Positions 494-53,368 of a stretch of 64,000 nt of DNA are shown piece after piece. Source of the DNA: Candidatus Micrarchaeota archaeon. Its GTDB lineage: Archaea > Micrarchaeota > Micrarchaeia > Anstonellales > Anstonellaceae. Both the position numbers and the translations under genes were made by a program. The stretch covers positions 4,015 to 68,014 of the forward strand of contig CAZOMB010000002.1 in NCBI GenBank assembly GCA_964581105.1, read 5' to 3'. Numbering within the stretch: position 1 is the first letter of the stretch; each line of letters starts with the position of its first letter. The notes beneath the pieces are model-generated. The model searched no databases. It was given only the letters and a program-made list of their open reading frames with translations, and was not told the DNA's origin.

Positions 494-952
494 TTACCTG
501 TATTTTCCTACTACTGTTTTTGATCCATACTGGGTTGCTGTAAGCCCGTTTGGACTTGTGTAGGTGATGTTCATCTGAACATCATAAAGGCTCCCTGCTG
601 TCCCGGTTGTGGCATTTGTGAGAGTTAGATTCTTTATTTCCCCTGATGCAAATGTTGTTGAGGTTGTGTAAGCAGTTGCATTGTCAAATGTCAGGTTTGT
701 CAATGTAAGAGAGCCTGTTGCGTCAACGTTTTGAAGGACCACTGTTGCTACGCCTGCAGTTGTGACCGAGTGCTCAAGAAGTGCAAATGGAGATGCGCTT
801 CTCCAGTAAGATGAAGACTGTGTTATTTTTGCGTCAGATGCAAGGCCTGGGAAAAAGCCAAGCAAGGCAATTGACACCAGTGCAATAATCAGAACCACTG
901 CAAGAAGGACCAGGTACTCGGTTGCACCTTGGCCTTTGTTGTGAAAAACCAT
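494..952 (-). CDS. Archaeal type IV pilin-like protein, class III signal peptide
   Basis: MVFHNKGQGATEYLVLLAVVLIIAL (basic-G-Q..E-hydrophobic); AGGAGG RBS before ATG 952; Thr/Ser-rich beta body. Confidence 0.85.
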   Translation of the reverse strand: MVFHNKGQGATEYLVLLAVVLIIALVSIALLGFFPGLASDAKITQSSSYWRSASPFALLEHSVTTAGVATVVLQNVDATGSLTLTNLTFDNATAYTTSTTFASGEIKNLTLTNATTGTAGSLYDVQMNITYTSPNGLTATQYGSKTVVGKYR

Positions 953-1077
953 CAAAATCCCTCCTATGCATTTGCCAATACTTACCTTTAATGCTTCTAA
1001 TTCGAGCAGACAGTATAAAAGCGTTTCTGAAGCTGTCCTAGAGGAATTGTTAAAAGAGGCAGCTTCCAAATCAGGCT

Positions 1078-2370
1078 ATGTATCGGTCAAATGCTTTGCT
1101 TGCAGGGGTTGGCTTGCTTTTGCTTTTGGGCTTGCCTGCAGCAAAATTCACTGCAAACCTGACAGTCCAGGTGTTTGACCAGGACTTAAGGCCAGTTGAA
1201 GGGGCCCAAGTATATGTTGAGTACCAGCTAAATGCAGTAGATGGAGACATTAAGACCAAGCCAAAGCTGACCAATGAAAGCGGCCTTGTCTTTATACAAT
1301 TCACAAATTATGAGGAAATAGAAAACTCGACTGACTATACCTATGTCTTGTATACAAAGTATGGGGACCAGCTTAAAACTGCTGACTTGGCTGCAAATGC
1401 CACCTACATTAGAAAGTACAGCATGCATGTTGAGGCATACTATCTTTTTGTCGGCGCTTTTGACCAGAATGGAAAGCCTATTGTCGCAAATGTGACTGTA
1501 GGGGAAGAAACAAAGGAAACTGACACTACTGGAAGAGTGGGCTTTCAGGTCCCTCAAGGAAGCTATACAATAAAAGTTGAGCAAAAGGACTTTGTCAGGA
1601 ACCAGGACATTAATATTTCCCAGGATGAGTCTGTTGACATAACTGTTGGCTTGTATGAGCTTGAAGTCAGGGTAACTGATGACAATAAAAACCCGCTTTT
1701 GGCCTCTGTGGAGGTATCTAGCCAGCACAAGGAAACTGACTCAACCGGCACTGCTGTATTTGGCAATATTTCAAATGAGGCGCCGCAAGTGGTAGCAAGA
1801 TATGGGCAGGGATTCAAAAAAGCAACACCAAGCCTGAAAACACAGACTTCTGTTGACATTGTCTTTGATTTGAATAAGCCAGTCATAAAAGAGCTTTATG
1901 TTGACCTGTCAGACTCAGGGGCAGGGACTTTGGGCCTTTTTGCAGATGATTTGGGCATAGCTGCAAGCGGCATTGAAACTGTTGCAGTAAGTTATGAAGT
2001 TGATGGCATTGAAACCAGTGTTCCTGCGTATTCAATTGCATATAATACATTTGAGGCAAAGCTGCCTGCCCAGGCTCCTGGCACCCTTGTAAAGTATTCT
2101 GCCACTGTGACAGACAAGGAGGGCAACAGCGCATATGGGGCAGGAAGCTATGCTATTCCTGGCGATGAGCCACCTGAGCCAGAACCAGAGCCTGATGGAG
2201 AGGGCTTTGACCTTGGCATACCTGTTGAAACCATTGTAATTGCAATCGTAGTATTTGCAATTGTTGCGTATGGGGTTTTGTTTTACCTGAACAAGAGGAA
2301 AAGAGACTCTCTTCCGCCTGTTCCGCCTGCCCAGCCACCTTCCCAGCCTCCAACAATCCCGCAGGCATAA
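1078..2370 (+). CDS. Membrane-anchored surface protein with carboxypeptidase-regulatory-like/PEGA-type beta repeats
   Basis: N-terminal signal; repeated V.D.N.KP+.A.V..G...KETD.TG units; EPPEPEPEP linker; C-terminal TM; Pro-rich tail. Confidence 0.7.
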   Translation: MYRSNALLAGVGLLLLLGLPAAKFTANLTVQVFDQDLRPVEGAQVYVEYQLNAVDGDIKTKPKLTNESGLVFIQFTNYEEIENSTDYTYVLYTKYGDQLKTADLAANATYIRKYSMHVEAYYLFVGAFDQNGKPIVANVTVGEETKETDTTGRVGFQVPQGSYTIKVEQKDFVRNQDINISQDESVDITVGLYELEVRVTDDNKNPLLASVEVSSQHKETDSTGTAVFGNISNEAPQVVARYGQGFKKATPSLKTQTSVDIVFDLNKPVIKELYVDLSDSGAGTLGLFADDLGIAASGIETVAVSYEVDGIETSVPAYSIAYNTFEAKLPAQAPGTLVKYSATVTDKEGNSAYGAGSYAIPGDEPPEPEPEPDGEGFDLGIPVETIVIAIVVFAIVAYGVLFYLNKRKRDSLPPVPPAQPPSQPPTIPQA

Positions 2371-2392
2371 GGAAAAGACAGAATACCCTCAT

Positions 2393-2580
2393 CCTAATAA
2401 TCTCTTCTGTTTCTAATTTTACTGCAGGGATGGCGGTCTGATTGCCTGCGGCAATACCCGCCACCCTAATAATCTCTTCTGTTTCTAATTTTACTGCAGG
2501 GATGGCGGTCTGATTGCCTGCGGCAATACCCGCCACCCTAATAATCTCTTCTGTTTCTAATTTTACTGCAGGGATGGCGG
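2393..2580 (+). repeat. 72-bp tandem direct repeat (about 2.6 copies) containing tRNA-Leu leader and tRNA nt 1-13
   Basis: CCTAATAATCTCTTCTG... recurs at 2393, 2465 and 2537; GCAGGGATGGCGG recurs at 2424, 2496 and 2568, the last being the real tRNA 5' end. Confidence 0.95.
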
Positions 2581-2703
2581 AGCCAGGTTTAACGCGCCAG
2601 AGGGTTTTGGCAATGACCAGGATCCGGTGAAACTCAAGATCCGAAATTAGGATGCGTTATCTGGTGACTTAGGTCATCGGGAGTTCGAATCTCCCTCCCT
2701 GCA
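2568..2703 (+). tRNA. tRNA-Leu(CAA) with introns at 30/31 (2601-2631) and 37/38 (2639-2658)
   Basis: Acceptor GCAGGGA/TCCCTGC plus A; anticodon arm CCAGA CTCAAGA TCTGG after removing both introns; long variable arm; T-arm GGGAG TTCGAAT CTCCC; both introns fold as bulge-helix-bulge. Confidence 0.9.
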
Positions 2704-2724
2704 TTCAAACTTCAGAGGGAGAGT

Positions 2725-3291
2725 CTATTTTTTCGCAAGCTTTAGAAAATTAGCATAAATTTCGCTCCCATGCTCTGTGTGCTCTACTTCTGGGTGGAAC
2801 AGGCAGCCGTAAATTGGCTTTGTGAGGGACTTGAACGCATGGTTTGAGCAGTCCTTTGAGTGCGCAAGCACTTGAAAATCAGGCGTTTTTATTACCTCGT
2901 CGTTGTGGGAAGCCCATGCTGTGAATTTTTCTGGCAAGCCTTCGAACAAATCGTTTTTTTCATCAACAATTATTTTTACTTTTCCGTATTCTGGGACTTT
3001 GCAGGGTTTTGCAGTTCCTCCAAAATGGATGCCAATAAACTGTTGCCCTGCGCAGATTCCCATTATTGGCCCGGAAAACTTGTCTAGGAAGGTTTTTGCA
3101 TTTCCTGCTTGCTTTGACTCGCCAAGCCCAAGCCTTAGTGCACCTCCTGAGAGAATGAGTGCATCATACTCTAAAATTTGTTTGAGAGAAGAGGATGACG
3201 GCAGTATTTTTGATTCTACTTCAAGGTACTTTAAGGTCCTGTGTATTCTGTGTGTCCACTGGGAGCCTAAATCTGCTATTGCTACTTTCAT
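2725..3291 (-). CDS. guaAA: GMP synthase, glutamine amidotransferase subunit A
   Basis: DLGSQWTHRI, ILSGG, PIMGICAGQQ, FHPEVEH class I GATase motifs; adjacent to subunit B. Confidence 0.95.
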   Translation of the reverse strand: MKVAIADLGSQWTHRIHRTLKYLEVESKILPSSSSLKQILEYDALILSGGALRLGLGESKQAGNAKTFLDKFSGPIMGICAGQQFIGIHFGGTAKPCKVPEYGKVKIIVDEKNDLFEGLPEKFTAWASHNDEVIKTPDFQVLAHSKDCSNHAFKSLTKPIYGCLFHPEVEHTEHGSEIYANFLKLAKK

Positions 3292-3295
3292 TTGT

Positions 3296-4255
3296 TCACT
3301 CCCACTCTATTGTGCCTGGCGGCTTGGATGTGATGTCATATACTACTCTGTTTACATGGCCCTTTAGTTCGCGGGTAATCCTGTCTGAAATTTTTTCAAG
3401 AACAGGAGAAGGAATGCGGCATGCTTTTGCAGTCATGCCATCCAGGCTTTCAACTGCCCTTATTACAATTGTGAAACTGTATGCACGTGCGTCACCAAGC
3501 ACGCCAACCGACTTTACTGGCAAAAGCACTGCAAAATATTGCCAGGGAAGCCTCATTTTCCCCTCTTTGGAAGCATTTTCTATTTCTTGTTCTGCAATAA
3601 GGCATGCTTTTCTTACTATTTCTGTTTTTTCAGGAGTTATCTCGCCCATTATCCGAACAGCCAGGCCTGGGCCTGGGAATGGCTGGCGCTCTGATATCTC
3701 GCCTGGCAAGCCCAATTCCCTGGCAACTGCCCTTACCTCGTCCTTGTAAAGCTCGCGCAATGGCTCGCACAAGAGCATGTTCATTTTCTTTGGGAGGCCG
3801 CCGACATTGTGGTGTGATTTTATTGTGTCCCTGCCATTGCCTCCTGACTCTATCCAGTCAGGGGCGATTGTCCCTTGTATCAGGAATGCTGCTTTTCTCT
3901 TTTTTGCCTGTTTTTCAAATACTTGTATGAATTTTCTCCCGATTATCTTCCTTTTTTTCTCAGGTGAGCTTGCCCCTTTGAGTGCTGAGAAAAATTGCCT
4001 GCTTGCATCTATTATCTGGAGGGTTACGCCTGCCCTTGCAAGCATTGCTTTTGCCTGCTTTGCCTCATCCTGCCTTACAAGCCCTGTATCAACAAATATG
4101 CAGTGGATGTTTTTGCCAAGCGCTTTTGTTGCAAGGGCTGCTGCTGTTGATGAGTCAACCCCCCCTGAGACTCCTATTATTGCCTTTCTTTCCCCTACTT
4201 GCTTTTGCATTGAGCTTATAGCCTGAGAAATGAATTTGCTGGCATCAAATGGCAT
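3296..4255 (-). CDS. guaAB: GMP synthase subunit B
   Basis: SGGVDSS PP-loop, QGTIAPDWIES, IKSHHNVGGLP, PFPGPGLAVR, C-terminal KPPGTIEWE. Confidence 0.97.
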   Translation of the reverse strand: MPFDASKFISQAISSMQKQVGERKAIIGVSGGVDSSTAAALATKALGKNIHCIFVDTGLVRQDEAKQAKAMLARAGVTLQIIDASRQFFSALKGASSPEKKRKIIGRKFIQVFEKQAKKRKAAFLIQGTIAPDWIESGGNGRDTIKSHHNVGGLPKKMNMLLCEPLRELYKDEVRAVARELGLPGEISERQPFPGPGLAVRIMGEITPEKTEIVRKACLIAEQEIENASKEGKMRLPWQYFAVLLPVKSVGVLGDARAYSFTIVIRAVESLDGMTAKACRIPSPVLEKISDRITRELKGHVNRVVYDITSKPPGTIEWE

Positions 4256-5326: not shown

Positions 5327-5692
5327 CTATGCTTGTTCCGGCCTCCAGCATGAGATAGTGGCATTTTCCAATGAACCACTTTGCCATATTGGGAATGTGA
5401 ACGCTGTTTTTTCTTCTTTAAAATGGCTGCAGGAAGAGTAACCTATTTGTGCTGTTTTTACTTCTATGCATAAATCTGAGAGTGGGTGGATTTTGTCAAT
5501 TTTTTCCCTAATGGTCTGCTCCTCAAAATCCTTTGACTTTGCTATTATTGCTGCTGCATCTGAGCACAGGAAAAAGTCTGCTTCCCCTGCAGTTGAATGG
5601 GAAAATAGGGCCAGGAGGGGGAGGGAAACCAAAAGCAGCATGAATGACAGTGCTGCTTCAAGGGAAAAAAGAAAGCCCCTTTTTTGACTCAT
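5327..5692 (-). CDS. Pilin-like protein, class III-type N-terminus
   Basis: MSQKRGFLFSLEAALSFMLLL; ATG 5692 overlaps the stop of the upstream gene. Confidence 0.65.
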   Translation of the reverse strand: MSQKRGFLFSLEAALSFMLLLVSLPLLALFSHSTAGEADFFLCSDAAAIIAKSKDFEEQTIREKIDKIHPLSDLCIEVKTAQIGYSSCSHFKEEKTAFTFPIWQSGSLENATISCWRPEQA

Positions 5693-6144
5693 GACATGCA
5701 GACCTCCAAAAGCACTGGCTCGCCTGACATGAGGGCAAGCCTTTTTGTGCAATATACTTGGTTTGCCTTTTGCCCTTTGCTTGAGAAAAAAATATCCTTT
5801 TCTTTGCTTTTGACTGAAACGCTTGCAAACTCCTTGCCTGCGATTGCAAGTGCATTCTGCAAATCGATTTGTTCAAGCTGGGTTTTGTCGATTTCCCATG
5901 CTTTTGTGTACTCAGCTGTCCCAATGCCCTTGTTGTTCTTTGCTGCCTGTGAAAGGATATATGAGGAAAAGCGCAGCGAAACAAGGGAAGAGGAGGTTTC
6001 TGTTGCTGAGGAATCTGCAAATGCGCTTGCAGCTGAAAGAAGCATTGAAAACGAGGCAAATGCAAGAACTGCAAGGACTAGGGCAAAGCCTGCGTCAATT
6101 GAGAAAAACGCATTATGCGCTTTTCTTTTGGCTGTTTTCAACAT
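5689..6144 (-). CDS. Pilin-like protein
   Basis: KRKAHNAFFSIDAGFALVLAVLAF; single N-terminal hydrophobic helix; member of an overlapping four-gene cluster. Confidence 0.6.
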   Translation of the reverse strand: MLKTAKRKAHNAFFSIDAGFALVLAVLAFASFSMLLSAASAFADSSATETSSSLVSLRFSSYILSQAAKNNKGIGTAEYTKAWEIDKTQLEQIDLQNALAIAGKEFASVSVKSKEKDIFFSSKGQKANQVYCTKRLALMSGEPVLLEVCMS

Positions 6145-6466
6145 GCAAAATCCCCTGCTGGCTCATTGAAACCTTGTGGAACAAAGGCTCTCTTATGCTT
6201 GGATTTTCCTTTGATGCAATTGCAGTGCCTTGCGATACAGGCACTGCAGAAATGTTAAGGCTTAGTTGGGAGCCTGAAAGAGCGCCTGCTGCAGTGTCAA
6301 TAGAAAGCACAGAATAGGAAAGCATTTTCCTTTGTCTTGAAATCTCAACTGACTCTGAAAATGCATGTATGACTGACTGTGATGCAAGCAAAAGGATTGC
6401 AAGGGCTGACAAGAGGGCTGCAAATGAAACCAGTGCTTCAAGCGAAGCCTGTGCCTTTTTTGTCAA
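6113..6466 (-). CDS. Class III signal peptide (pilin-like) protein
   Basis: TTG start after GAGGTG RBS; KKAQASLEALVSFAALL. Confidence 0.75.
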   Translation of the reverse strand: MTKKAQASLEALVSFAALLSALAILLLASQSVIHAFSESVEISRQRKMLSYSVLSIDTAAGALSGSQLSLNISAVPVSQGTAIASKENPSIREPLFHKVSMSQQGILHVENSQKKSA

Positions 6467-7005
6467 AATTCCACCTCATGGGCCTGCGGGAAGGCTGTTG
6501 AATAGCCAATGCCAAATGAATCTGAGTAAAGGGAAAAGCCAACTTCAGAAATGTGGATTTTCCTCTCAAGAACATTTACTTCAAATGAGCCTGTGCATAC
6601 TGGGTTTGAAAGCGCAAAGGCGCCTTGGGGGATTTGCGGGGATTTTGTTTGCGACATTCTCAGGGAAGCCTGCTGTAAAGTTGCTTCTGATGTGCTGCTG
6701 CACCAGAACAAAATGCTATAGCCATGTTCCTGCAACTTTCCTTCAAAATCAAGTGCCTGAAGATAGGCTGCTGTTGCTGCTGACTGGCTTGCCTTATCTT
6801 TTGGCGCTGTTTTAAGGGCAAGGGAAACTGTTTGAGACAACGAGGAGTAAAAAGCCTGCTTTATTGCAATTTGTCCAATATGCAATGACTGGAACTTTTG
6901 GTAAGAGTTGTCAGGAACAGCTTTTGAGAAATTTTCAGCTGACACAAGCAGGGCAAGAAGGAAAACTGTGCACAGTATGAAAGAAACAAAGCCCTTTTTC
7001 ATCAT
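6463..7005 (-). CDS. Pilin-like/exported protein
   Basis: MMKKGFVSFILCTVFLLALLV; 4-bp overlaps with both neighbours. Confidence 0.55.
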   Translation of the reverse strand: MMKKGFVSFILCTVFLLALLVSAENFSKAVPDNSYQKFQSLHIGQIAIKQAFYSSLSQTVSLALKTAPKDKASQSAATAAYLQALDFEGKLQEHGYSILFWCSSTSEATLQQASLRMSQTKSPQIPQGAFALSNPVCTGSFEVNVLERKIHISEVGFSLYSDSFGIGYSTAFPQAHEVEF

Positions 7006-8095: not shown

Positions 8096-8680
8096 CTAGG
8101 ATTTGTACTTTTCCTTCAAGACTTTCACTATTTCTACAATGGCCTTGTATATTGGTGATCTGATAACAGCCTGGCATACAAAGGGAACGACCAAGGATTT
8201 GTAGTTTTCCTTGAAGCTTTTCGCCATTTCTACAATGGTCTTGTATATTGGTAATCCGACGATAGTCCTGCATGCAAAAGGAACAGCTAAAGCATGTGAA
8301 ACAACTGTAATGAATGTTCCTGGCTGTGCAATTAGGGGGTATAAACACAAGCCAACTGTTAAAGCAAAAGAAGTTGCTGTCTTTATGCTGTTGTAAGAGG
8401 AACCAGTGCTCAAGAAAATTGCAGTCCTAAGTACTGCTTTTCGCAGGGTTTCTTTCATTTTTGATGAAAGGGTTTGCCCTTGTTCTTGTTTTGGCTCCTT
8501 TTTTTGCCTTGGCTCCTGTTTTTGAGGTTCCCGCCTCCAGGGAGCATTGTCCCGTAGTCTACGAAAAAACTCTATGGCTCTTTTGGTTTTGGAGGTGTGC
8601 CTAAATGGACCTGAGAAATCTTTCGTATGATCCTGGTCATGGCTAGTGTGGTGTGTGATTTTCTCTTTTAAGGCATTCAT
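8096..8680 (-). CDS. Orphan protein, probable membrane-associated, with C-terminal 32-aa duplication
   Basis: 194-aa ORF filling the gap; TATA-like TTTTATAC upstream; no recognisable family. Confidence 0.55.
   Translation of the reverse strand: MNALKEKITHHTSHDQDHTKDFSGPFRHTSKTKRAIEFFRRLRDNAPWRREPQKQEPRQKKEPKQEQGQTLSSKMKETLRKAVLRTAIFLSTGSSYNSIKTATSFALTVGLCLYPLIAQPGTFITVVSHALAVPFACRTIVGLPIYKTIVEMAKSFKENYKSLVVPFVCQAVIRSPIYKAIVEIVKVLKEKYKS
8099..8290. repeat. Imperfect 96-bp tandem duplication inside the orphan ORF
   Basis: GGATTTGTA.TTTTCCTT.AAG...ATTTCTACAATGG.CTTGTATATTGGT at 8099 and 8195. Confidence 0.85.
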
Positions 8681-53268: not shown

Positions 53269-53368
53269 TGGGCCTAGAGGGATTCGAACCCTCGACGCGT
53301 GGATGGCCCTGTGGCATCCCTTTACACACATAAGAGTCCACTGCTCTACCAAGCTGAGCTATAGGCCC
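53269..53368 (-). tRNA. tRNA-Lys(CTT) with a 26-nt canonical 37/38 intron (53305-53330)
   Basis: GGGCCTATAGCTCAGCTTGGTAGAGCA GTGGA CTCTTA [intron] A TCCAC...GAGGGTTCGAATCCCTCTAGGCCCA; BHB central helix CTCT/AGGG. Confidence 0.95.

What the first reader, a model, noticed from the sequence alone, without database searches (positions are those of the whole stretch)
2393..2580. 72-bp tandem repeat that copies the tRNA-Leu leader and first 13 nt into hairpin cassettes
Seen: each unit is a 31-nt AT-rich leader, tRNA nt 1-13 (GCAGGGATGGCGG) and a 28-nt tail. Only the third copy continues into the real tRNA. The tail folds back on the tRNA fragment: outer stem (A)GGG-A-TGGCGG with CCGCCA-CCC(T), inner stem ATTGCC-tgc-GGCAAT. 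Part of the tail (TGCCTGCGG) is the reverse complement of 2359-2367, and AATACCC..CA resembles 2382-2391, which suggests an origin by template switching. Inference: if the leader carries the tRNA promoter, each copy could make a small hairpin RNA starting like tRNA-Leu, serving as a decoy, antisense RNA, processing substrate or dosage control. A copy-number-variable locus is also possible.
Basis: partly seen in the sequence, partly recalled or inferred. Interest (0 to 1): 0.7.

Follow-up and report, generated by a model that had tools for sequence, protein, structure and literature searches.

The report
Duplicated tRNA-Leu promoter with hairpin cassettes
In a tiny DPANN archaeon (Micrarchaeota), the promoter and first 13 bases of a leucine tRNA gene are repeated in tandem, each extra copy locked into a perfect hairpin; related genomes carry similar cassettes, which look more like a by-product of DNA copying errors than a proven new RNA gene.

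Summary
Units 2393-2464 and 2465-2536 are identical, and 2537-2580 repeats the first 44 nt and runs into a two-intron tRNA-Leu(CAA) at 2568-2703.

- **Promoter copies.** Each unit carries a full archaeal promoter: TAATAAT at -29..-23 and T-1/G+1. This matches the geometry I found in 118 Micrarchaeota class-II tRNA genes.
- **Hairpin.** The tail folds on the 13-nt pseudo-5' end (z = -4.1).
- **Reality and copy number.** The array occurs in independent assemblies with 100% identical flanks, with three or two cores, so it is real and probably copy-number variable.
- **Origin of the arms.** The 3' arm (GCGGCAAT-ACCCGCCACC) is ancestral upstream DNA. Its CCGCCA appears to derive from Pro-Pro codons of the upstream gene's tail. 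Only the promoter copy, the 13 nt and the inner-left arm are new.
- **Relatives.** Similar cassettes occur in 6 of 11 species-level versions of this locus and at three other Micrarchaeota tRNA loci.
- **Stems.** All stems are pure Watson-Crick (137 WC, 0 GU) and change on both sides together.
- **Excluded.** No bulge-helix-bulge motif could excise a unit, and there is no virus or integrase link in the window.

Best reading: a palindrome-driven template-switch and unequal-recombination hot spot whose units probably fire transcription as a side effect. A selected leader or decoy role is not excluded.

The parts
1078..2370 (+). Upstream ORF (430 aa): CarboxypepD_reg-like surface protein with a C-terminal TM helix and a proline-rich tail ending ...PPTIPQA*
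   Evidence: ORF list; Pfam hits on the identical protein in public contigs; homologues are Micrarchaeota proteins with PP-rich C-termini. The same ORF precedes the tRNA-Leu in L217, L229, L264, L421 and L236.
2386..2397 (+). Degenerate first copy of the anti-fragment (CCCTCATCC) followed by TAA. It is in frame with the upstream ORF and homologous to the ORF end CCG CCA TCC TAA of relatives
   Evidence: Sequence read directly and compared with L011/L012/L421.
2393..2464 (+). Repeat unit 1: promoter copy (TATA TAATAAT 2395-2401), pseudo-5' end GCAGGGATGGCGG (2424-2436), tail (2437-2464)
   Evidence: identical to unit 2; promoter geometry.
2465..2536 (+). Repeat unit 2: promoter copy (TATA 2467-2473), pseudo-5' end (2496-2508), tail (2509-2536)
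2537..2580 (+). Partial unit 3: the working promoter (TATA 2539-2545) and the real tRNA nt 1-13
2427..2466 (+). Cassette hairpin 1: outer stem 2427-2436 / 2458-2466 (CCGCCACCC), internal loop, inner stem 2441-2446 / 2450-2455
   Evidence: strand folding: MFE -24.2 kcal/mol, z = -4.06; 15 WC pairs, 0 GU.
2499..2538 (+). Cassette hairpin 2, identical to hairpin 1
2568..2703 (+). tRNA-Leu(CAA) gene with two introns: exons 2568-2601, 2633-2638 and 2659-2703; introns 2602-2632 (position 30/31 or 31/32) and 2639-2658 (canonical 37/38)
   Evidence: ARAGORN on the spliced sequence gives tRNA-Leu(caa), 85 nt. BHB geometry: H = 4, h' = 9 for intron 1; H = 3/4, h' = 3 for intron 2. Relatives carry CCAGA-CTCAAG without intron 1.
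2690..2733 (+). 3' trailer hairpin and T6: tRNA 2690-2697 (TCTCCCTC) pairs with 2716-2723 (GAGGGAGA), followed by TTTTTT at 2728-2733, the likely transcription stop for the tRNA
   Evidence: Sequence read directly. The same pairing appears in a weak Rfam alignment to sX4, well below threshold.
2725..3291 (-). Convergent downstream gene: GMP synthase glutamine amidotransferase subunit (188 aa)
   Evidence: PF00117. Best relatives are Micrarchaeota / Anstonellaceae MAGs at 69-73% identity.

Best explanation
The array is an unstable partial tandem duplication of the tRNA-Leu(CAA) promoter plus tRNA nt 1-13. It was created and kept tidy by DNA-level palindrome mechanics, not by selection for a new RNA.

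Shown:
- An inverted repeat was there before the cassette. Directly upstream of the TATA box lies CCGCCA(C/T)C(C), which is complementary to tRNA nt 5-13. In relatives this sequence is the Pro-Pro-(Ser/Ala) end of the upstream proline-rich ORF.
- Any copy of the tRNA start placed upstream of that sequence folds back on it automatically.

Inferred:
- Replication template switching at this quasi-palindrome produced the promoter + 13-nt copy and the inner-left arm (ATTGCC, the inverse of the ancestral GGCAAT).
- Slippage or unequal recombination between the resulting 72-bp units then gave two cassettes in some cells and one in others.

Likely consequences, also inferred:
- Each unit is a complete promoter with the native TATA-to-start spacing, so RNA polymerase probably starts at G2424 and G2496 as well as at G2568.
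- The products would be short hairpin RNAs or pre-tRNAs with 72- or 144-nt leaders.
- The hairpin sequesters the pseudo-5' end, so it cannot compete with the true 5' end for the acceptor 3' strand. This would make the duplication tolerable.
- The net effect on tRNA-Leu(CAA) supply is probably small.
For: - Exact 72-bp units.
- 2 versus 3 cores in assemblies whose flanks are 100% identical; unitig breaks fall at the repeat borders.
- The right half of the cassette is ancestral. L236 has no cassette and is the most distant relative (GATase 42% identical), yet it carries GCGGCAAACCGCCACC + TATA. L011/L012/L421 and L475-477 carry CCGCCA(T/G)C as the last ORF codons, with the stop codon inside the TATA box.
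- The event recurs. An upstream copy of the 13-mer occurs in 4 of 114 Micrarchaeota class-II tRNA loci, against 0.15 expected. It occurs in 6 of 11 species-level versions of this syntenic locus: window, L217, L469, L471, L472, L473.
- Inner stems differ between loci: ATTGCC, TTTTGCC, ATTCGC, AGCCGC and an A/T-run hairpin.
- Stems are perfect Watson-Crick: 137 WC, 0 GU, one mismatch, one bulge. This is expected for templated DNA palindromes and unusual for RNA-level drift.
- Two-sided changes keep the pairing: 7 of 16 pairs; L469 core GGGTTGCGG pairs with CCGCAACCC. Template switching is documented to create perfect stems and to produce such apparent compensatory changes in one event (PMC8794818).
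- Distribution is patchy among close relatives: L361 has a cassette and L372 does not; L217/L469 do and L229/L264/L421 do not.
- No Rfam family matches.
Against: - Cassettes persist across deep divergence (upstream ORF only 44-50% identical) in small, dense genomes, where junk is usually lost.
- The module TCTGATTGCC...GGCAAT is conserved between the window and L472/L473, although it sits after nt 13 in one and after nt 7 in the others.
- Upstream copies in the window, L471, L361 and L210 keep a correctly spaced TATA box.
- Every cassette keeps an internal loop between its two stems. A single fold-back extension would not leave one.
- In L210, L216, L472 and L473 the only well-placed promoter lies upstream of the cassette, so there the cassette must be part of the tRNA's primary transcript.
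- All of these points are compatible with a selected role.
- Copy number comes from short-read assemblies, not from reads.
Confidence: 0.5

Rival explanations
1. Selected RNA-level element. The cassette is a structured leader or decoy maintained by selection. Tandem promoters would raise or buffer tRNA-Leu(CAA) output. The hairpin would either stop or stabilise upstream-initiated transcripts, or guide 5' processing by hiding the pseudo-5' end, in organisms whose tRNAs otherwise seem to be transcribed without leaders.
For: The same two-tier fold appears in all seven cassettes, with z from -2.1 to -4.8. Two-sided changes keep the pairs. The TCTGATTGCC...GGCAAT module is conserved across species whose ORFs are about 47% identical. 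Upstream copies keep TATA at -29..-23 and T-1/G+1. In L210, L216, L472 and L473 the cassette lies between the only good promoter and the tRNA. Six of 11 syntenic loci carry one.
Against: There are no G-U pairs in 137 stem pairs. Close relatives lack the cassette (L229, L264, L421, L236, L372, L475). Inner-stem sequence, loop size (3 to 55 nt), the position of the module and promoter presence all vary. No U-tract terminator consistently follows the hairpin. No expression data exist.
Confidence: 0.25
2. DNA-level functional palindrome. The nested inverted repeat just upstream of BRE/TATA is a binding site for a dimeric regulator or a recombinase, so each unit adds an operator together with a promoter.
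For: Perfect Watson-Crick symmetry means the structure or site is the same on both strands. Its position abuts the TATA box, where the usual A-rich BRE (-37..-35 in 118 loci) is replaced by GC-rich CCGCCAYC. In L469 the tRNA-plus-cassette segment is inverted between the same flanking genes.
Against: The half-site sequences are not conserved between loci apart from the part dictated by the tRNA. Arm spacing varies widely. No candidate regulator or recombinase gene lies next to the window locus.
Confidence: 0.1
3. Scar of a mobile element. The direct repeats of the tRNA start are attL/attR-type remnants of an integrative element or virus that targeted this tRNA gene.
For: This tRNA-Leu is an integration hot spot in relatives. 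A Phage_integrase gene lies directly downstream in L472. 3'-end fragment duplicates lie downstream in L009, L236 and L473. A truncated inverted tRNA fragment lies beside a Fic gene in L470.
Against: All those relics involve the 3' end and lie downstream. Here the 5' end plus the promoter is repeated with only 28 nt between repeats. No integrase or cargo is present in the window. Clean excision would restore a single copy rather than leave two identical tandem units. The 16-mer ACTGCAGGGATGGCGG gave only unrelated phage or bacterial hits in IMG/VR.
Confidence: 0.07
4. Unusual exon-intron or split-tRNA arrangement. The upstream 13-mer is the true 5' exon, and the rest of the unit is removed by the splicing endonuclease or joined in trans.
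For: Micrarchaeota (ARMAN) have a broad-specificity endonuclease (PMC3239211, title and abstract only). This gene already has two introns. The interior of the L216 cassette resembles the start of that tRNA's own intron (p < 0.0005).
Against: No pair of cut sites one period apart gives a 4-bp helix flanked by 3-nt bulges with supporting helices in the window, L210, L216, L217 or L361. The same scanner recovers both real introns. A complete gene with its own promoter follows the array.
Confidence: 0.03
5. Assembly artefact. Only one copy exists in the organism.
For: Short-read assemblers mis-handle tandem repeats, and different assemblies disagree on copy number.
Against: The junction GGCGG-TCTGATT is present in five contiguous assemblies from at least four projects. 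De Bruijn unitigs from two further runs branch exactly at the repeat borders. Homologous cassettes exist in other species. A 188-nt periodic stretch is resolvable at k = 141.
Confidence: 0.03

Closest known systems
Template-switch (quasipalindrome-associated) mutations that create and repair hairpin stems (PMC8794818; PMC7202029)
   Same: A pre-existing imperfect inverted repeat; perfect Watson-Crick stems; multi-base 'compensatory' changes on both arms; a junction that contains an inverted copy of nearby sequence (TGCCTGCGG versus 2359-2367).
   Different: Those reports describe a mutational process, mostly in bacteria, yeast and rRNA genes. Here the outcome is a recurrent, promoter-bearing pseudo-5' end of a tRNA gene, amplified in tandem. 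The exact switch points could not be reconstructed.
E. coli tyrT locus: 178-bp tandem repeats downstream of tRNA-Tyr, each containing the last 19 nt of the tRNA (recalled from memory; one search did not retrieve a paper to cite)
   Same: Tandem units beside a tRNA gene that each include a terminal piece of the tRNA. The copy number reflects unequal recombination.
   Different: That case is bacterial, on the 3' side and downstream, with no promoter copy and no fold-back hairpin. The tyrT repeats also encode a small protein.
tRNA-fragment direct repeats at att sites of archaeal and bacterial integrative elements
   Same: A partial copy of a tRNA gene in direct orientation next to the intact gene. 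The same tRNA-Leu shows such 3' relics, and an integrase, in relatives.
   Different: att repeats are normally the 3' part and flank kilobases of element DNA with an integrase. Here the 5' end plus promoter is repeated with 28 nt between copies and no element.
Split tRNA 5'-half genes of Nanoarchaeum equitans / Caldivirga (recalled from memory)
   Same: A promoter, then the 5' part of a tRNA, then a GC-rich complementary sequence.
   Different: The fragment is only 13 nt. Its complement pairs within the same molecule. There is no bulge-helix-bulge motif at the junction. An intact gene follows.
Leaderless tRNA transcription in RNase P-free Nanoarchaeum equitans (PMC10100707 abstract; the fixed promoter distance there is recalled from memory)
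   Same: A fixed TATA-to-tRNA distance and a pyrimidine/purine start at -1/+1 across 118 Micrarchaeota class-II tRNA genes. Every copy of the promoter therefore defines a start at its own G1.
   Different: I did not determine whether Micrarchaeota have RNase P. Cassettes in L210, L216, L472 and L473 imply long leaders that would need 5' processing.

Membership tests
Tandem repeat with variable copy number (VNTR-like locus) | Head-to-tail units of near-identical sequence | tested here: met
   Period 72, 2.8 copies, 97% matches. Units 1 and 2 are identical.
Tandem repeat with variable copy number (VNTR-like locus) | Different copy numbers in otherwise identical genomes | tested here: inconclusive
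   3 cores in the window, Ga0310068 and Ga0180432; 2 cores in ERZ27256770 and Ga0309772; flanks 100% identical. These are short-read assemblies, and no reads were available.
Archaeal promoter (BRE/TATA/initiator) | A/T-rich TATA box centred about 26-27 bp upstream of a purine start that is preceded by a pyrimidine | tested here: met
   TAATAAT at -29..-23 and T-1/G+1 in all three units. Same geometry as tRNA-Met and tRNA-Lys in the window and as the logo of 118 loci. The BRE position is GC-rich, which is atypical.
Archaeal promoter (BRE/TATA/initiator) | Transcription actually initiates there | not testable with these tools
   No transcriptome data for this organism.
Archaeal bulge-helix-bulge (BHB) intron | Two 3-nt bulges separated by a 4-bp helix at the two cut sites, with flanking helices; excision restores the tRNA | tested here: not met
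   No cut-site pair 72 or 144 nt apart (or one period apart in L210, L216, L217, L361) has H = 4 together with flanking helices. The scanner recovers the two real introns of the gene.
att-site duplication by an integrative element | Direct repeats of part of a tRNA gene that flank element DNA encoding an integrase | tested here: not met
   Only 28 nt lie between repeats. The neighbouring genes are a surface protein and GMP synthase subunits, with no integrase. The viral scan was negative.
att-site duplication by an integrative element | The repeat is usually the 3' part of the tRNA | tested here: not met
   The repeat is the promoter plus nt 1-13.
Split tRNA 5'-half gene | 5' fragment whose 3' extension pairs with the leader of a separately encoded 3' half; no intact gene | tested here: not met
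   The extension pairs with the fragment itself, and an intact tRNA-Leu follows.
Any curated RNA family (Rfam 15) | Covariance-model match to the unit | tested here: not met
   No match to the units at E <= 1 in 2000-3200. Only two tRNAs reach gathering score in the whole window.
Conserved structured RNA (generic) | Pairs maintained by covariation that includes G-U intermediates | tested here: inconclusive
   7 of 16 consensus pairs show two-sided changes, but there are 0 G-U in 137 pairs. Only 6-7 sequences were available, and template switching gives the same pattern (PMC8794818).

The most novel reading that the evidence does not exclude
Micrarchaeota maintain, by selection, a previously undescribed class of promoter-proximal 'pseudo-5'-end hairpin cassettes' at class-II tRNA genes. 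These would be transcribed, self-sequestering copies of the tRNA start that act as structured leaders or decoys, tuning initiation, 5'-end definition or stability of tRNA-Leu in organisms whose tRNAs are otherwise transcribed from position +1. The 72-bp array in this window would be a recent amplification of that device.
Probability: 0.2. Interest if true: 0.7.

Novelty: new variant of a known kind. Interest (0 to 1): 0.45.

Why it matters
If the mutational reading holds, this is a clean natural example of a chance inverted repeat seeding recurrent template-switch events. The repeat forms between Pro-Pro codons at a gene's end and the 5' end of the next tRNA. The events build perfect hairpins, duplicate a promoter and mimic RNA covariation. 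That is a caution against reading 'compensatory' changes as proof of function.

If the cassettes are selected, they would be a new kind of cis element controlling tRNA expression or 5'-end definition in DPANN archaea, whose tRNA processing is poorly known.

There is also a practical point. The locus hides a two-intron tRNA-Leu that standard tRNA finders miss, and its repeat breaks short-read assemblies.

Tried and rejected
2. **Genome scan for the anti-fragment plus core.** This was also swamped by GC-rich chance hits. It yielded only L236 and re-found L011, L012 and L210.
3. **Nine of the 12 hits for two 13-mers 53-83 nt apart** were bacterial coding or other tandem repeats and are irrelevant.
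4. **The closest homologues of the 430-aa ORF (50-53% identical)** have purC downstream rather than the tRNA, so four contig look-ups told me nothing about the cassette.
5. **BHB intron, split exon or EndA substrate:** rejected by an explicit geometry scan. A looser scan of L472/L473 gave only many chance hits.
6. **Box C/D or K-turn reading** of GGAUGG...CUGA in the window cassette: considered by eye and dropped, because CUGA is absent from L217, L210 and L361.
7. **CRISPR-like array:** rejected because the units are identical and there are no spacers.
8. **Minus-strand ORF 2153-2536 (127 aa):** a repeat-generated artefact that overlaps the real ORF.
9. **Virus or attP link:** the IMG/VR scan gave only unrelated phage and bacterial sequences.
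10. **Exact reconstruction of the template-switch points** from L236-like ancestral sequence: no unique solution. A simple GCGG-microhomology duplication leaves 15 nt unexplained.
11. **Intron origin of the window tail:** the resemblance is suggestive only. GGCAATA against relatives' canonical introns gives p about 0.006-0.02, and against L236 intron 1 p about 0.002.
12. **Literature searches** found no description of such cassettes and nothing on RNase P in Micrarchaeota. They also failed to retrieve the E. coli tyrT repeat papers.

Full report
**1. What is in the sequence**

Tandem Repeats Finder reports one strong array at 2382-2580: period 72, 2.8 copies, 97% matches, score 377. Direct comparison shows that 2393-2464 and 2465-2536 are identical. 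2537-2580 repeats the first 44 nt.

The tail is unique in the 64-kb window even at three mismatches. As RNA, the 13-mer plus tail forms a two-tier hairpin. The outer stem is 2427-2436 / 2458-2466 with a bulged A. The inner stem is ATTGCC-TGC-GGCAAT. MFE is -24.2 kcal/mol and z = -4.06.

**2. The gene that the third copy runs into**

Default ARAGORN and Rfam miss this gene. ARAGORN with introns calls a class-II tRNA but gives the wrong anticodon. Relatives show CCAGA-CTCAAG-...-TCTGG.

Removing 2602-2632 (31 nt) and 2639-2658 (20 nt) gives a canonical 85-nt tRNA-Leu(CAA). A simple geometry scanner for the bulge-helix-bulge splicing motif finds both introns. Intron 1 has a 4-bp central helix and a 9-bp h' helix. 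Intron 2 has 3 of 4 central pairs and a 3-bp h' helix.

**3. Organism and neighbourhood**

The flanking genes are a 430-aa surface protein with a proline-rich C-terminal tail (1078-2370, +) and the two GMP-synthase subunits (2725-4255, -). The closest genomes are Micrarchaeota / Anstonellaceae MAGs, with GATase 69-73% identical. No integrase or other mobile-element gene lies next to the locus.

**4. Is the array real?**

Proteins identical to the two flanking genes occur on contigs from at least four projects. All are 100% identical to the window outside the repeat.

- Three assemblies have three 13-mers: the window, Ga0310068 and Ga0180432.
- Two have two: ENA ERZ27256770 and Ga0309772.
- Logan unitigs from two runs stop exactly at the repeat borders.

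The cassette junction is therefore genuine. Copy number probably varies between one and two cassettes, but this rests on assemblies and not on reads.

**5. Each unit is a complete promoter**

I collected about 120 Micrarchaeota class-II tRNA genes that begin GCAGGGATGGCGGAG and aligned their upstream regions on the tRNA start. Position-specific signals appear in 118 distinct sequences:

- an A/T-rich TATA box at -31..-24;
- A-rich positions at -37..-35 and at -14..-10;
- T at -1 in 80% of sequences.

This geometry puts the transcription start at, or within a base of, tRNA position +1.

The window's tRNA-Met and tRNA-Lys have TATA boxes at the same distance. All three copies of the Leu leader carry TAATAAT at -29..-23 and T-1/G+1. 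Initiation at 2424 and 2496 is plausible but not demonstrated.

**6. The key correction: half of the hairpin is old**

The same gene order (ORF430, then tRNA-Leu(CAA), then convergent GATase) is found in L217, L229/L011, L264/L012, L421 and L236.

- In L011, L012 and L421 there is no cassette. The ORF ends ...CCG CCA TCC TAA, and the stop codon sits inside the TATA box. CCGCCATCC is the exact complement of tRNA nt 5-13.
- In L475-477 the ORF ends CAG CCG CCA GCT TAA, again inside the TATA box.
- L236 is the most distant relative (GATase 42% identical) and also lacks a cassette. Its ORF ends ...IPQA*, as in the window, followed by GAGCGGCAAACCGCCACC-TTAAATAT. This aligns with the window tail GCGGCAATACCCGCCACC-CTAATAAT (p about 0.0005).

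So the inner-right arm and the 'anti-fragment' are ancestral upstream DNA. The CCGCCA core plausibly derives from Pro-Pro codons of the proline-rich ORF tail (one search shows such tails throughout the family). The new parts are the extra promoter, the 13-nt pseudo-5' end and the inner-left arm.

Across 120 loci, a complement of at least 8 nt to the tRNA start lies within 90 nt upstream in 9 cases, against 0.4 expected. Most of these cases belong to this locus family.

**7. The same kind of cassette recurs**

A genome-wide pattern scan and look-ups through ORF430 homologues found the following:

- **L217:** core + CCGTG + TTTTGCC-TGTT-GGCAAAA + AGT + CCGCCATCC + promoter + tRNA-Leu(CAA).
- **L471:** promoter + core duplicated. 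The core variant is GCAGAGGTGGCGG, with a perfectly matching CCGCCACC. The inner stem is TTTGCC/GGCAAA, around a 55-nt two-hairpin loop insert.
- **L469:** the tRNA-plus-cassette segment is inverted between the same flanking genes. The core is GCAGGGGTTGCGG, paired with CCCGCAACCC. The inner stem is ATTCGC/GCGAAT.
- **L472 and L473:** a copy of nt 1-15 is interrupted after nt 7 by a 53-nt insert. The insert begins TCTGATTGCCGC...GCGGCAAT, the same module as the window tail.
- **L361:** tRNA-Leu(CAA) at a different locus, inner stem AGCCGC/GCGGCT.
- **L210:** tRNA-Leu(UAG).
- **L216 = L203:** tRNA-Ser(GCU). The cassette interior resembles the start of that tRNA's own intron (p < 0.0005).

Among GTDB representatives, 4 of 114 loci have an upstream copy of the 13-mer with at most 2 mismatches, against 0.15 expected. 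Within the syntenic group the count is 6 of 11 species-level loci.

All cassettes adopt the same two-tier fold, with z = -4.8, -2.1, -4.2 and -3.0 for L217, L210, L216 and L361. RNAalifold on six of them predicts 16 pairs, 7 of which have two-sided changes.

**8. Selection or mechanism?**

Three features point to DNA-level templating rather than RNA-level selection.

- The MFE stems of seven cassettes contain 137 Watson-Crick pairs and no G-U pair.
- The arm next to the promoter matches local ancestral sequence, and the other arm is its inverse.
- The distribution among close relatives is patchy.

Replication template switching at quasi-palindromes is known to create perfect stems and to produce multi-base 'compensatory' changes in one event (PMC8794818; PMC7202029).

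The junction in the window also carries an inverted copy of the ORF end (TGCCTGCGG versus 2359-2367). It overlaps the ancestral GCGGCAAT through a GCGG microhomology (read directly from the sequence). I could not reconstruct a unique series of switch points. A single fold-back extension does not explain the internal loop that every cassette keeps.

Several observations argue against a purely neutral view.

- Cassettes persist across deep divergence in small genomes.
- The TCTGATTGCC...GGCAAT module is conserved.
- Several upstream copies keep a correctly spaced TATA box.
- In L210, L216, L472 and L473 the only well-placed promoter is upstream of the cassette, so there the cassette must be part of the primary transcript.

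**9. Alternatives tested**

- **BHB intron or split exon.** No pair of cut sites one period apart has the required geometry in any of five loci.
- **att scar.** Relatives do show 3'-side relics and an integrase at this tRNA. The window repeat, however, is the 5' end plus promoter, with 28 nt between copies and no element. A viral scan was negative.
- **Known RNA family.** None matches.
- **Assembly artefact.** Excluded, as described in section 4.

**10. Verdict**

It is partly wrong in treating the hairpin's 3' arm as new, and an EndA substrate is not supported.

The most likely explanation (about 0.5) is a palindrome-seeded, unstable partial duplication. Its pseudo-5' ends are neutralised by the hairpin, and its extra promoters probably fire as a side effect. 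A selected leader or decoy role (about 0.25) remains open and is the interesting possibility.

To my knowledge, and in the literature searches run here, such promoter-bearing pseudo-5'-end cassettes have not been described. I class this as a new variant of a known kind: partial tRNA-gene duplications and template-switch hairpins.

Noticed in passing
window 2568-2703: The tRNA-Leu(CAA) has two introns: 31 nt at 30/31-31/32 with a relaxed HBh' motif, and 20 nt at the canonical 37/38. Default ARAGORN and the Rfam tRNA model both miss it. Intron 1 is shared with the distant relative L236 but is absent from L011, L012, L217 and L421.
   Followed up: yes
about 118 Micrarchaeota loci (L345-L459), anchored on the tRNA start: Class-II tRNA genes show a tightly positioned TATA box (-31..-24), A-rich positions at -37..-35 and -14..-10, and T at -1 in 80% of cases. 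This implies transcription starting at tRNA position +1, a leaderless-like arrangement reminiscent of RNase P-free Nanoarchaeum. I did not establish whether Micrarchaeota have RNase P.
   Followed up: partly
window 2690-2733: The 3' trailer contains GAGGGAGA (2716-2723), complementary to the tRNA's own TCTCCCTC (2690-2697). A T6 run follows at 2728-2733 and overlaps the stop region of the convergent GATase gene. It looks like a terminator-like hairpin built from the tRNA 3' end.
   Followed up: no
window 2368-2397; L011, L012, L421, L475-477: In relatives the upstream ORF's stop codon (TAA) lies inside the tRNA's TATA box. In the window the ORF stops 9 codons earlier (TAA at 2368-2370), and the old in-frame TAA at 2395-2397 is now the start of the first TATA box.
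   Followed up: partly
L009 (about 73 nt after the tRNA), L236, L473; L472 2590+; L470 about 2000: The same tRNA-Leu is an integration hot spot in relatives. Duplicated 3'-end fragments lie downstream (L009, L236, L473). A Phage_integrase gene lies directly after the tRNA (L472). A truncated inverted 11-nt tRNA 3' fragment lies next to a Fic gene (L470).
   Followed up: partly
L469 about 2020-2270: The tRNA-Leu and its cassette are inverted as a block between the same two flanking genes (ORF430 and GATase). Nested palindromes lie at the block's edge.
   Followed up: no
L210 1711-1752: Upstream of the tRNA-Leu(UAG) cassette lies a mini-helix-like relic: GCAGGAA, a perfect hairpin (ATTTGTTC..GAACAAAT) and TGCTCCCTGCATT, which copies the tRNA's 3' end. 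That tRNA also has a long T-loop intron.
   Followed up: no
L216/L203 tRNA-Ser(GCU) intron (149 nt): The intron is built from several similar A/T-run hairpin modules, and one module recurs in the upstream cassette. This hints that hairpin modules move between introns and leaders.
   Followed up: partly
window 53269-53368 (-): A second intron-containing tRNA: Lys(CTT) with a 26-nt intron according to ARAGORN -i. Rfam also scores it as a tRNA.
   Followed up: no
window 8098-8284: Another tandem repeat: period 96, 1.9 copies, 82% matches (TRF score 260). Not examined.
   Followed up: no
window 494-1069 (-) and 5327-7005 (-): Several small ORFs have hydrophobic N-termini of the archaeal class III (pilin-like) signal type, for example ...KGQGATEYLVLLAVVLIIALV. 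Relatives carry a weak PF04021 hit in the equivalent neighbouring gene.
   Followed up: no
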